Assembly (NCBI RefSeq): GCF_044647545.1
Contig: NZ_CP172818.1
Strand: one strand, 5' to 3'
Source of the DNA: Escherichia coli
Lineage (GTDB): Bacteria; Pseudomonadota; Gammaproteobacteria; Enterobacterales; Enterobacteriaceae
DNA length: 64,000 bases
Made by a program: the position numbers
In this document: piece by piece, positions 60,901 to 63,900 of the stretch
Layout of the letters: each line of letters starts with the position of its first letter
Numbering within the stretch: position 1 is the stretch's first letter

Positions 60901-63900
60901 CTGGGTCAATGCATTACCGCCAACGCCCCGACACGCAAGTCCTGAGCAATTAGAAAAAACAGTTCGTTATCTTACACAAACTGTGCATCCCCGTAGTGCC
61001 GACAATATTGATAATCTGAAAAGGTCCGCAGAGTATATAAAAGAGGTCTTTATCAGTAGCGGTGCCAGAGTTACCGCGCAGGACGTCCCCATTACGGGAG
61101 GTCCCTACAAAAACATTGTTGCTGATTATGGTCCTGCCGATGGACCGCTGATTATTATTGGTGCGCACTATGACTCTGTCAGCAGTTATGAAAACGATCA
61201 ATTGACCTATACGCCGGGCGCGGATGATAACGCCAGCGGCGTGGCAGGATTACTCGAACTGGCACGTTTGTTACAGCAGCAAGCACCGAAAACTGGCGTG
61301 CAGCTGGTCGCCTATGCGTCGGAAGAACCGCCCTTCTTTCGTAGCGATGAAATGGGGAGCGCGGTACATGCAGCTTCGCTTGAGCGTCCAGTGAGATTAA
61401 TGATAGCGCTGGAGATGATTGGCTATTACGACTCTGCGCCTGGTAGTCAGGATTACCCTTACCCGGCAATGTCCTGGCTTTATCCCGATCGGGGAGACTT
61501 TATTGCCGTGGTCGGCAGAATGCAGGATATCAACGCCGTTCGTCAGCTAAAAGCGGCATTGTTGTCATCTCAGGATTTATCTGTTTATTCTATGAATGCC
61601 CCAGGGTTTATTCCCGGTATTGATTTCTCTGACCACCTTAATTATTGGCAACACGATATTCCCGCCGTAATGATTACCGACACCGCTTTTTATCGTAATA
61701 AACAATACCACTTGCCCGGTGATACCGCAGACAGATTGAATTATCAGAAAATGGCCCAGGTCGTGGATGGCGTTATCACCTTGTTATACAACAGTAAACA
61801 ATAAAATTTTCTCGAGGCGGGTCCAGAAAAAGCAACATGCGCATTTTATTTTCCCTCATCTGTTTTAAGATGCGAAACATGAAATTCAACGGAGGAAAAA
61901 TAAATGGGAATGATTGGCTATTTTGCGGAAATCGACTCAGAAAAGATTAACCAACTGCTTGAGTCAGCTGAAAAACCTTTAATGGACAATATTCATGACA
62001 CGCTTTCAGGATTACGCCGACTGGATATTGATAAACGCTGGGATTTTTTACATTTTGGCCTGACAGGCACCTCTGCTTTTGATCCCGCGAAGAATGATCC
62101 GCTGAGTCGTGCCGTGCTTGGTGAACACAGCCTCGAAGATGGCATAGATGGTTTCCTGGGGTTGACCTGGAATCAGGAGTTAGCTGCGACAATCGACCGC
62201 CTGGAAGCTCTTGACCGAAATGTGCTGCGTAAACAGTTTTCCATTCAGCGACTCAATGAAATGGAGATTTATCCGGGAGTAACCTTTTCAGAAGAGTTAG
62301 AGGGGCAACTCTTTGCATCCATCATGCTTGATATGGAAAAATTAATTAGCGCTTATCGGCGTATACTGCGACAGGGGAATCATGGCTGACTGTTGGCCAA
62401 AAAAACCGCCGAACATGTCGGCGGCTTTCTGACTTACGAACTGACAGCTTACATCAGCGGCATTGCTAACCGCACAATGCTAATCAGCGGTTGCGGCCAT
62501 ATACCCAGCACCAGTACCAACAGTGCAGAGATCAGCACCACGATACCGCCCGCGCTGTACTGCCAGTTTGATGGTGCATCGCGACCCGGTTGTTCCGGGG
62601 CATGCAGGTATAAGCTCACCGCTACGCGCAGGTAGTAGTAGAGGCCGATTGCCGAACCGACAACCACCGCGCCCACCAGCCACCACAAGTGTGCCTGGAC
62701 ACCGACCGCCAGCACGTAGAACTTACCGATAAAGCCCAGCGTCATTGGGATACCCGCCAGAGACAGCATCATCACCGTCATCACTGCCGCGAGGATCGGA
62801 CGATGCCAGAACAGACCGCGGTAAGAGAACAGGGAATCAGCATCCGGGCCACGATACGGGCTGGACATCAGGCTGACCACGCCGAACGCGCCGAGGCTGC
62901 TGAACAGATAACCGGCCAGGTAAACCCCTACCGCTTCCATCGACATCTCGCCCGTTTGCAGCGCAATCAGCGCCACCAGCAGATAGCCGAGATGAGAGAT
63001 AGATGAGTAACCGAGCAGACGTTTGATATTGGTCTGGCTCAGCGCCATCAGGTTACCGAAGATGATGGAGGCAAAGGCGATAATCGCCAGCACCACCCGA
63101 ATCGCTTCGCTGTCACCCACCGGTGCGTAGAGGAACAGACGCATCACCACACCGAAGATAGCGATTTTGCTCGCCGTCGCCAGGAAAGTGGAAACCGGCG
63201 CAGGCGCGCCCTGGTATACGTCTGGCGTCCACAGGTGGAACGGCACCAGAGAGAGTTTGAAGCCGAGGCCAACAATCATCAGGCCGAAACCTGCCAGCAA
63301 CAGCGGCTCGTTGAGCATACCGTCGCCGAGGTTTTTACCCAGCGCGACAAACGACAGGTCGCCAGACTGCGCATACACCAGCGCCATACCGAACAGCAGG
63401 AAAGAAGACGCTGCGGCAGAAAGGATGGTGTATTTGATACTGGCTTCCAGCGAACGTTTCTGGCGGAAAGCGTAACCGACCAGGCCAAACAGCGGCAAAG
63501 AGATCAGTTCAATACCGAGGAACAAAGACGCCAGATGGTTGGCATTCGCCAGCAGGATCCCGCCCAGCGCGGCAATTAACACCAACAGGTAGAACTCATC
63601 CTTGTTGTCGTTATAGCCTTCAAGCCACGGGTAGGCGAAAGTACAGGTGGCGAGGCTCGCCAACAATACCAGCCCGGTGTAAAGCATGGCGAAACCATCA
63701 ACGCGCATCAGCGGCGTAACGTCCATAGCGCCCGCCTGGCCGACAAACCAGAGCGAAACCAGCGCCGCGTTAAGCCCAATAACCGAGAGCGTAGCGTTGA
63801 GGAAATGATTGCGTCGCCACGCAATGGAGAGCATCACCACCACCACCGTCAAGCCGACGATCAGCAACGGTAGCAGTGCGATCAGGTTTTGTGGAGTTAT

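What the first reader, a model, noticed from the sequence alone, without database searches (positions are those of the whole stretch)
62390..62448. yfbN-yfbO-yfbP absent between yfbM and nuoN
From memory, K-12 has three genes (yfbN, yfbO, yfbP; roughly 2.5 kb) between yfbM and nuoN. Here the yfbM stop and the nuoN stop are separated by only about 60 bp, occupied by a clean bidirectional terminator hairpin. This marks a strain-variable insertion/deletion point in an otherwise collinear region and supports the conclusion that the strain is not K-12.
Basis: partly seen in the sequence, partly recalled or inferred. Interest (0 to 1): 0.35.

Follow-up and report, generated by a model that had tools for sequence, protein, structure and literature searches.

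The report
Empty gene slot between yfbM and nuoN
This E. coli strain lacks the three poorly known genes K-12 carries between yfbM and the nuo operon; this is the common form of an old, variable gene slot, so the finding is real but ordinary.

Summary
In the window, yfbM (61904-62389, +) and nuoN (62449-63906, -) are 59 bp apart, and the spacer holds one strong hairpin, the nuo terminator. K-12 MG1655 has 2,610 bp with yfbN, yfbO and yfbP at this place.

The adjacent arrangement is the majority state: 4,309 of 5,426 complete E. coli genomes have it, as do E. albertii and E. whittamii. About 1,015 genomes carry K-12-type DNA.

K-12's segment is not a simple K-12 insertion. It is a decayed version of an older cassette cluster: an SMI1/KNR4-like ORF, yfbN, yfbO, and yfbP or another ORF. 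That cluster sits at the same site in E. fergusonii, some E. albertii, cryptic Escherichia, and, as yfbP-yfbN, in Superficieibacter. The window therefore most likely carries an old, widespread loss allele, not a strain-specific deletion. No integrase, tRNA, flanking repeats or transposase mark the boundaries.

The window is about 99.9% identical to ST648-type strains, so it is not K-12. Its only local difference from them is a private 25-nt loss that removes YfbM's invariant C-terminal ALTVIVG.

This is ordinary accessory-gene variation of low interest.

The parts
61904..62389 (+). yfbM (DUF1877 family). This is a C-terminally truncated allele of 161 aa ending ...RQGNHG*, instead of 167 aa ending ...RQGNHALTVIVG*.
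   Evidence: ORF list. Pfam PF08974 scores 114.9 bits against a cut-off of 22, matching profile positions 1-158 of 163. An alignment with 8 full-length Escherichia YfbM sequences shows ALTVIVG invariant in them and missing here. PDB 1RYL is K-12 YfbM.
62384..62398 (.). Segment that is 25 nt shorter than in the closest relatives (ST648-type strains). The best alignment needs gaps of 1, 6, 17 and 1 nt. It creates the premature TGA and removes the original stop codon plus about 17 nt of spacer.
   Evidence: Pairwise alignments. Over 8,151 nt against FDAARGOS_497 there are only 1 mismatch and 25 gap positions, all here. No complete E. coli genome shares this form (best 97.8%). The exact protein is not on record, and the exact 36-mer is absent from JGI metagenomes.
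62390..62448 (.). 59-bp spacer between the convergent stops of yfbM and nuoN. It contains no remnant of yfbN, yfbO or yfbP.
   Evidence: Sequence. Alignment with empty and occupied alleles. No Rfam family reaches threshold.
62398..62399 (.). Position that corresponds to the cassette slot. In occupied alleles the cluster lies between the short stretch after the yfbM stop and the A-run of the terminator.
   Evidence: Junction alignments of forms A, B, C and D against empty alleles. An IS200-type element sits at the same point in one E. albertii genome.
62399..62424 (-). Intrinsic terminator of the nuo operon. The stem is CCGCCGA/TCGGCGG (62406-62412 and 62418-62424) with a 5-nt loop. The A7 run (62399-62405) is the U7 tail on the nuo transcript.
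   Evidence: Fold energy -26.5 kcal/mol, z -4.5. The stem is identical in E. coli, E. albertii, E. whittamii and the occupied alleles, with small differences in the loop. The pattern scan missed it, probably because its greedy stem extension uses up part of the T run.
62449..63906 (-). nuoN, the last gene of the NADH:quinone oxidoreductase (nuo) operon.
   Evidence: ORF of 485 aa. Annotated as nuoN in every matching genome.

Best explanation
The window carries the common unoccupied allele of an old, polymorphic cassette slot between yfbM and the nuo operon terminator. The DNA that K-12 has here is a partly decayed version of a cluster. That cluster consists of an SMI1/KNR4-like ORF ('orfX', 191 aa), yfbN, yfbO, and then yfbP or another ORF. 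K-12 keeps only a 3' remnant of orfX. The cluster has been at this locus since before Escherichia species diverged, and probably since the common ancestor with Superficieibacter. The empty allele is most likely a block loss that happened long ago. It joins the short stretch after the yfbM stop to the A-run of the nuo terminator. It now segregates in E. coli (79% of complete genomes), E. albertii and E. whittamii. Occupied and empty alleles probably move between lineages by homologous recombination in the conserved flanks, not by any mobility function of the cluster itself. In the window the spacer only terminates nuo transcription (canonical hairpin plus U7) and, less efficiently, yfbM transcription. 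Shown: the anatomy, the counts, the nested forms and the synteny. Inferred: the polarity (loss rather than gain) and the spread by recombination. Separately, this strain has a private 25-nt loss that truncates YfbM.
For: Anatomy and K-12 comparison.

Counts: 4,309 of 5,426 genomes have yfbM and nuoN adjacent. 1,015 carry K-12 island DNA, all chromosomal and at this locus, 985 of them at 99% identity or more. 14 keep the 5' part of orfX.

Nested forms at the same junctions:
- A: orfX-yfbN-yfbO (L011, L019).
- B: form A minus about 440 bp at the left (L004).
- C: K-12, with the same left deletion as B plus yfbP.
- D: orfX-yfbN (L018, L020, and E. fergusonii L029).
- E. albertii: orfX remnant-yfbN-yfbO-yfbP::IS3, with K-12's right junction (L037).
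- Escherichia sp. E2748: yfbN-yfbO-409-aa ORF (L042).

Occupied and empty E. albertii alleles have flanks 99.0% and 97.3% identical.

Superficieibacter sp. HKU1 has yfbK-yfbL-yfbP'-yfbN'-nuoN. YfbP is 61% and YfbN 46% identical to K-12, beside YfbL at 68%, YfbK at 62% and NuoN at 95%.

yfbN alleles differ by 15-22% in nucleotides, while nuoN differs by 2-4%, so the cluster is old and mosaic.

There is no integrase, tRNA, transposase, or terminal direct or inverted repeats.
Against: - The cluster has low G+C (0.38-0.40, against 0.57 for nuoN and 0.515 for the window), as foreign DNA often does. However, yfbK, yfbL and yfbM are also low (0.45-0.47).
- The empty junction looks the same in E. coli, E. 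whittamii and E. albertii and holds no island remnant. That also fits an ancestrally empty site.
- The junction itself (microhomology of about ..AAT/..CAT before the A-run) does not tell insertion from deletion.
- The YfbP family is patchy: Leminorella has it in another context, and it occurs in Bacteroidota and Janthinobacterium. That suggests horizontal mobility.
- K-12's yfbN is closer to that of a non-coli Escherichia (95%) than to other E. coli alleles (79-85%). K-12's own lineage may therefore have received its allele by recombination.
- Salmonella, Citrobacter and other close genera could not be examined.
Confidence: 0.68

Rival explanations
1. Gain in the K-12 lineage. The site was ancestrally empty in E. 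coli. The ancestor of K-12-like strains acquired yfbN-yfbO-yfbP either by a de novo insertion or by homologous replacement with DNA from another Escherichia lineage. On this view the window simply keeps the ancestral state.
For: - The empty state is the majority in E. coli and is present in E. albertii and E. whittamii.
- The K-12 form is at least 99% identical in 985 genomes, as expected for a single recent origin.
- The cluster has low G+C.
- K-12's yfbN is 95% identical to that of Escherichia sp. MOD1-EC7003-like genomes but only 79-85% identical to other E. coli alleles.
Against: - A de novo insertion in K-12's lineage is excluded by the same cluster with the same right junction in E. albertii and by forms A, B and D at the same junctions in other E. 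coli, E. fergusonii and cryptic clades.
- K-12 and form B share an identical 440-bp left deletion, so K-12's version derives from a longer resident cluster.
- yfbP and yfbN are syntenic next to nuoN in Superficieibacter.
- Only the sub-case 're-acquired by homologous recombination from an occupied relative' remains viable.
Confidence: 0.25
2. Recent deletion specific to the window's strain or clone.
For: The strain does have a private 25-nt loss at exactly this junction, so the spot is mutable in this lineage.
Against: All close relatives (about 99.9% identical over 25 kb) and 4,309 complete genomes have the same adjacency of yfbM and nuoN, with a 66-bp spacer. The spacer holds no island remnant.
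Confidence: 0.03
3. Assembly artefact: a collapsed or mis-joined region that hides the three genes.
For: The odd multi-gap pattern of the 25-nt difference (1+6+17+1) could be a local sequence error.
Against: The adjacency is reproduced in thousands of independent complete genomes and in three other species. The rest of the window matches its relatives almost base for base.
Confidence: 0.01

Closest known systems
Strain-specific islets and integration hotspots of E. coli (K-islands/O-islands of K-12 versus O157:H7 comparisons; hotspots of the E. coli pan-genome). From my own knowledge; not checked in a paper here.
   Same: A few accessory genes are present or absent at a fixed point between conserved core genes. 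They have lower G+C than the core, and several alternative contents occur at the same point. O157:H7 genomes have the empty form (rows H23-H24).
   Different: There is no integrase, tRNA, phage or IS signature at the ends. The contents are old and syntenic across genera rather than recently imported.
Rho-independent terminators shared by convergent genes (bidirectional intrinsic terminators)
   Same: A single GC-rich hairpin sits between two convergent stop codons. An A-run lies on one side and a T-containing stretch on the other. The stem is conserved across Escherichia species.
   Different: Only the nuo strand has a proper U-run (U7). The yfbM strand has CUUUCU. Form D alleles have a truly symmetrical version, A7-hairpin-T7. 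No transcript-end data were available.
Clusters of SMI1/KNR4 (SUKH) type immunity-like genes of polymorphic toxin systems (from my own knowledge of Zhang, Iyer and Aravind's work; not read here)
   Same: Small ORFs of unknown function sit in a variable array with cassette-like replacement. One ORF is named SMI1/KNR4 family by NCBI's annotation. YfbN has a conserved N-terminal part and two deeply divergent C-terminal types.
   Different: Pfam support for SUKH is below the curated cut-off (22.2 bits against 25.4). No toxin gene is nearby. There are no PADLOC or NCBIfam hits. None of these genes is in the window.

Membership tests
Rho-independent (intrinsic) terminator | GC-rich stem-loop just downstream of the stop codon | tested here: met
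   7-bp stem (6 G-C pairs) with a 5-nt loop at 62406-62424, 24 nt from the nuoN stop. Fold energy -26.5 kcal/mol, z -4.5.
Rho-independent (intrinsic) terminator | Run of U directly 3' of the stem on the transcribed strand (nuo, minus strand) | tested here: met
   Seven T on the minus strand (62405-62399).
Bidirectional intrinsic terminator | U-run 3' of the stem on the second strand as well (yfbM, plus strand) | tested here: not met
   The plus strand continues CTTTCTGAC, so only three consecutive T. Form D alleles do have T7 there.
Rho-independent (intrinsic) terminator | Transcripts end there in vivo | not testable with these tools
   No transcript 3'-end data were available.
Integrase-mediated genomic island (for the K-12 segment) | Integrase or recombinase gene in the island | tested here: not met
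   The only ORFs are yfbN, yfbO, yfbP and an orfX remnant. Pfam gives weak UBA-like hits, nothing, and TPR for the three genes.
Integrase-mediated genomic island (for the K-12 segment) | tRNA or tmRNA gene or attachment-site direct repeats at the boundaries | tested here: not met
   No tRNA in L001, L011, L037 or window 55000-64000. No boundary direct repeats.
Integrase-mediated genomic island (for the K-12 segment) | Atypical base composition | tested here: met
   Island G+C is 0.398, against nuoN 0.572 and the window 0.515. Neighbouring yfbK, yfbL and yfbM are 0.45-0.47.
IS or transposon-borne insertion (for the K-12 segment) | Transposase, terminal inverted repeats, target-site duplication | tested here: not met
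   None found in K-12 or form A. IS elements occur at the locus only as secondary insertions in single genomes.
DUF1877 / YfbM family (window ORF 61904-62389) | Pfam PF08974 above the gathering score | tested here: met
   114.9 bits against a cut-off of 22.
DUF1877 / YfbM family (window ORF 61904-62389) | Full-length protein including the conserved C-terminus | tested here: not met
   The last 7 residues (ALTVIVG), invariant in 8 of 8 full-length Escherichia sequences, are replaced by G.
SMI1/KNR4 (SUKH) family (orfX of occupied alleles; not in the window) | Pfam PF09346 or PF14567 above the gathering score | tested here: inconclusive
   Best score is 22.2 bits against a cut-off of 25.4 (E. 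fergusonii copy); 15.8-16.1 bits for the L008 copy. NCBI's annotation names it an SMI1/KNR4 family protein.
E. coli K-12 | K-12 gene order yfbM-yfbN-yfbO-yfbP-nuoN and K-12-level identity | tested here: not met
   The genes are absent. The window is about 99.9% identical to ST648-type strains and only 96.4% identical to K-12-type strains in nuoN.

The most novel reading that the evidence does not exclude
The yfbM-nuoN slot may be a long-lived, trans-species presence/absence and cassette polymorphism. It is occupied or empty in both E. coli and E. albertii, and yfbN has two deeply divergent C-terminal types shared across species. Such a pattern could be kept by balancing or diversifying selection because the cluster (SUKH-like ORF, YfbN, YfbO, and YfbP or the 409-aa ORF) is a conflict system. 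It could be immunity-like, or an undescribed defence or antagonism module. On this reading the window's strain, which lacks the cluster and also carries a damaged yfbM, would be a natural null.
Probability: 0.12. Interest if true: 0.45.

Novelty: already known. Interest (0 to 1): 0.17.

Why it matters
The practical value is small. The finding marks the strain as non-K-12 and places it with the majority allele at one of many variable points of the E. coli chromosome. The useful correction is that K-12's yfbN-yfbO-yfbP should not be read as a K-12-specific foreign insertion. They are the remains of an old resident cassette cluster that most E. coli have lost. This affects how these y-genes are treated in pan-genome and gene-age analyses. 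The private truncation of the otherwise very conserved YfbM would matter only if someone studies that protein or this strain.

Tried and rejected
- **Direct or inverted repeats at the island ends.** Searched in K-12 and form A. Nothing lies at the boundaries; only a 2-5 nt microhomology.
- **Weak duplication lead.** The form A left spacer has a hairpin followed by CAGCTTACGAA-TGAT. This matches 15 of 16 positions of the nuoN-proximal spacer of E. whittamii (1 of 2,000 shuffles). It does not match the other empty alleles convincingly, so it stays an unexplained lead.
- **Function of the missing genes.** Pfam gave only sub-threshold UBA-like, TPR and SUKH hits. NCBIfam and PADLOC gave nothing. 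PDB sequence searches gave nothing significant. The literature had only incidental mentions.
- **AlphaFold model of YfbM.** Intended to judge the lost C-terminus, but the model was poor (mean pLDDT 51), so no inference was drawn.
- **Looking for the window's private junction elsewhere.** The exact truncated protein is not on record. The exact 36-mer is not in JGI metagenomes. No complete E. coli genome shares it.
- **Rfam scan of the spacer.** Only hits far below threshold.
- **Pattern scan for terminators.** It missed the hairpin. I read this as a rule artefact, not as evidence against the terminator.
- **Genome-collection scan with YfbM.** It returned only four species, so Salmonella, Citrobacter and similar genera could not be examined.

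Full report
**1. The observation**

The window's last 2.1 kb holds yfbM (61904..62389, + strand, 161 aa, Pfam DUF1877 at 114.9 bits) and nuoN (62449..63906, - strand, 485 aa) in convergent orientation. The spacer 62390-62448 is 59 bp. It contains an A7 run (62399-62405) followed by the hairpin CCGCCGA-ACATG-TCGGCGG (62406-62424).

In a 71-nt context the nuo-strand RNA folds at -26.5 kcal/mol (z -4.5; none of 200 shuffles as good). The yfbM-strand RNA folds at -19.8 kcal/mol (z -3.2). On the nuo strand the stem is followed by seven U, which makes a canonical intrinsic terminator. On the yfbM strand it is followed by CUUUCU, so 'bidirectional' is only partly supported. The consensus scan missed this hairpin, probably because its greedy stem extension pairs part of the T run. 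Rfam has nothing here.

K-12 MG1655 has yfbM (b2272), yfbN (b2273, -), yfbO (b2274, +), yfbP (b2275, +) and nuoN (b2276). There are 2,610 bp between the two stops.

**2. How common each state is**

A 1,101-nt query spanning yfbM, the spacer and nuoN matches 5,423 of 5,426 complete E. coli genomes. In 4,309 of them (79%) it matches as one uninterrupted piece, meaning yfbM and nuoN are adjacent. These include O157:H7 strains.

The 2,572-nt K-12 segment is found in 1,015 genomes. It is always chromosomal and always at this locus, and 985 copies are at least 99% identical. The remainder include IS insertions and IS-associated deletions: IS66 in yfbM, and IS5 or IS1 deletions.

The window's state is therefore the majority state.

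**3. Which strain this is**

Window 39001-64000 is about 99.9% identical over its whole length to a group of genomes that includes FDAARGOS_497, MS6198 and a strain named ST648. From memory, ST648 belongs to phylogroup F; I did not test this. K-12-type strains match only the nuoN half of the junction query, at 96.4%. The strain is not K-12.

**4.

Against its near-identical relatives the window is 25 nt shorter, and the loss lies exactly at the yfbM 3' end. Over 8,151 aligned bases against FDAARGOS_497 there are only 1 mismatch and 25 gap positions, all between about 62384 and 62398. The best alignment needs gaps of 1, 6, 17 and 1 nt.

The change shifts the frame, so YfbM ends ...RQGNHG* instead of ...RQGNHALTVIVG*. 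YfbM is 96-100% identical in protein across E. coli, E. albertii, E. whittamii, E. fergusonii and cryptic Escherichia, although its DNA differs by 6-10%. The lost ALTVIVG is invariant in all eight full-length sequences compared. K-12 YfbM has a solved structure, 1RYL.

No complete E. coli genome, no gene on record in the large assembly index, and no JGI metagenome contig shares this form. It is either a genuine private mutation that probably damages YfbM or a local sequence error. I could not tell which. An AlphaFold model intended to judge the C-terminus was too poor to use (pLDDT 51).

**5. What K-12's extra DNA really is**

Related loci show a nested series at the same junctions.

- **Form A:** yfbM - orfX (191 aa, named SMI1/KNR4 family by NCBI's annotation; my Pfam hits are below cut-off) - yfbN (-) - yfbO (+) - nuoN. 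It occurs in Escherichia sp. MOD1-EC7003-like genomes and in E. coli A16.
- **Form D:** orfX - yfbN only. It occurs in two E. coli genomes and in E. fergusonii.
- **Form B:** form A without its first 440 bp or so.
- **Form C (K-12):** it has exactly the same left deletion as form B, so a 270-bp orfX remnant lies in K-12's 'intergenic' yfbM-yfbN region. It also has yfbP between yfbO and the terminator.
- **Some E. albertii genomes:** orfX remnant - yfbN - yfbO - yfbP::IS3, with K-12's right junction. Their flanks are 99.0% and 97.3% identical to those of empty E. albertii genomes.
- **Escherichia sp. E2748:** a 409-aa ORF in the place of yfbP.

Only 14 complete E. coli genomes keep the 5' part of orfX.

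**6. Polarity**

The boundaries carry no integrase, tRNA, transposase, or terminal direct or inverted repeats. In form A the left end reads ...GCACAAT|GGAAAG and the right end ...TACCAT|AAAAAAACCGCC. Empty alleles read ...GCACCA(T)|AAAAAAACCGCC. This fits either a clean insertion or a microhomology deletion and cannot decide between them.

The decision comes from synteny. Superficieibacter sp. HKU1 (Enterobacteriaceae) has elaA-rbn-cheW-like-yfbK-yfbL-yfbP'-yfbN'-nuoN. YfbP is 61% and YfbN 46% identical to K-12's proteins, next to YfbL at 68%, YfbK at 62% and NuoN at 95%. A related metagenomic genome has yfbN' next to nuoN with two other small ORFs in the place of yfbP'.

Within Escherichia, yfbN alleles differ by 15-22% in DNA, while nuoN differs by 2-4%. 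Combinations are mosaic: yfbO can be nearly identical where yfbN is 78-85% identical.

The cluster is therefore old and has recombined. A de novo insertion in K-12's lineage is excluded. The most economical reading is that the empty allele is an old block loss. It now segregates in E. coli, E. albertii and E. whittamii, and alleles are exchanged by homologous recombination in the conserved flanks.

Several points count against this reading:
- The cluster's G+C is low (0.38-0.40).
- The empty junction is uniform across species.
- The YfbP family is patchy outside Enterobacteriaceae.
- K-12's yfbN is closest to that of a non-coli Escherichia (95%), so K-12's own lineage may have re-acquired its allele by recombination.

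I put about two-thirds on 'old loss allele' and about one quarter on 'gain by K-12's lineage through homologous replacement'.

**7. How it works in the window**

Nothing more than the nuo terminator is present. Transcription of the 13-gene nuo operon ends at the hairpin plus U7, 24 nt after the nuoN stop. yfbM transcripts meet the same hairpin from the other side with a weak U-tract. The stretch just upstream of the A-run is a recurrent breakpoint. It is the cassette junction. It is also the site of an IS200-type insertion in one E. albertii genome (L025), the end of the 440-bp deletion in forms B and C, and the site of the window's private 25-nt loss.

**8. Comparison with what is known, and verdict**

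This is the familiar kind of strain-variable islet at a fixed point between core genes, without the hallmarks of integrase- or IS-mediated islands. The genes concerned are annotated in thousands of public genomes. The literature mentions them only incidentally.

The function of the missing genes stays unknown:
- YfbN has weak tandem UBA-like matches, a conserved N-terminal 100 residues (84-98% identical) and two C-terminal types at 50-60% identity that are shared across species.
- YfbO has no match in my Pfam copy. The precomputed annotation in the assembly index lists PF27222 'YfbO'.
- YfbP is a TPR protein.
- NCBIfam and PADLOC give nothing.

A conflict-system reading is possible but unsupported.

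The finding is real, correctly described and ordinary. Its interest is low.

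Noticed in passing
window 62384-62398: The window is 25 nt shorter here than its otherwise near-identical ST648-type relatives, with gaps of 1+6+17+1 nt. This truncates YfbM and removes the invariant C-terminal ALTVIVG. The form was not found in any other genome, gene index or metagenome searched. It may be a real private mutation or a local sequence error.
   Followed up: yes
L025 5520-6240 (E. albertii, 100% identical to the type-strain contig L009): An IS200/IS605-type element (Y1 transposase) is inserted exactly at the A-run in front of the nuo terminator, the same point as the cassette junction. This probably explains why the type-strain contig ends 14 nt after yfbM.
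   Followed up: partly
L001 7439-7710 (K-12, 'intergenic' yfbM-yfbN): This K-12 region is not plain spacer. It is the 3' remnant (about 270 bp) of a 191-aa SMI1/KNR4-like ORF that is intact in form A and form D alleles.
   Followed up: yes
YfbN proteins of L001, L004, L011, L018-L020, L029, L037, L042: YfbN has a conserved N-terminal 100 residues (84-98% identity, weak tandem UBA-like matches). Its C-terminal part comes in two types at 50-60% identity, and each type is shared across species. For example, E. coli 2013C-4282 and E. fergusonii are 99% identical in the C-terminal part.
   Followed up: partly
L011 7905-7965 (form A, between yfbM and orfX): A second hairpin (AAGCTGGATA...TATCCAGCTT) is followed by CAGCTTACGAA-TGAT. 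This matches 15 of 16 positions of the nuoN-proximal spacer of E. whittamii (1 of 2,000 shuffles). It may be a relic of an older nuoN 3' end or terminator. Unexplained.
   Followed up: partly
yfbM in L001, L002, L004, L018-L020 (and window 61904-62389): yfbM has two DNA allele classes within E. coli that differ by about 6-7%, as much as E. coli differs from E. albertii. The protein stays 96-100% identical. This points to strong purifying selection on a protein of unknown function next to a recombining slot.
   Followed up: partly
L042 3088-4317 (Escherichia sp. E2748): A 409-aa ORF with no Pfam match occupies the position next to nuoN that yfbP has in K-12.
   Followed up: no
L032 5685-5925 (Superficieibacter-like metagenome genome): Two copies of a CCGCCGAAA(T/C)CGGCGG terminator-like hairpin, separated by a REP-like GC-rich element, lie between nuoN and yfbN'.
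   Followed up: no
L003, L005, L006 (E. coli UTME-12, Res13-Lact-PEB14-36, L6-21): Secondary events at the locus in single genomes: IS66 (ISEc22) inside yfbM; an IS5-associated deletion from elaD to the nuo terminator; and an IS1-associated deletion from rbn to within yfbO.
   Followed up: no
window 61700-62700 (tool behaviour): The promoter/terminator pattern scan did not report the obvious nuo terminator. The likely reason is that its maximal stem extension pairs AAAG with the first T residues and leaves fewer than 5 T in the tail.
   Followed up: partly
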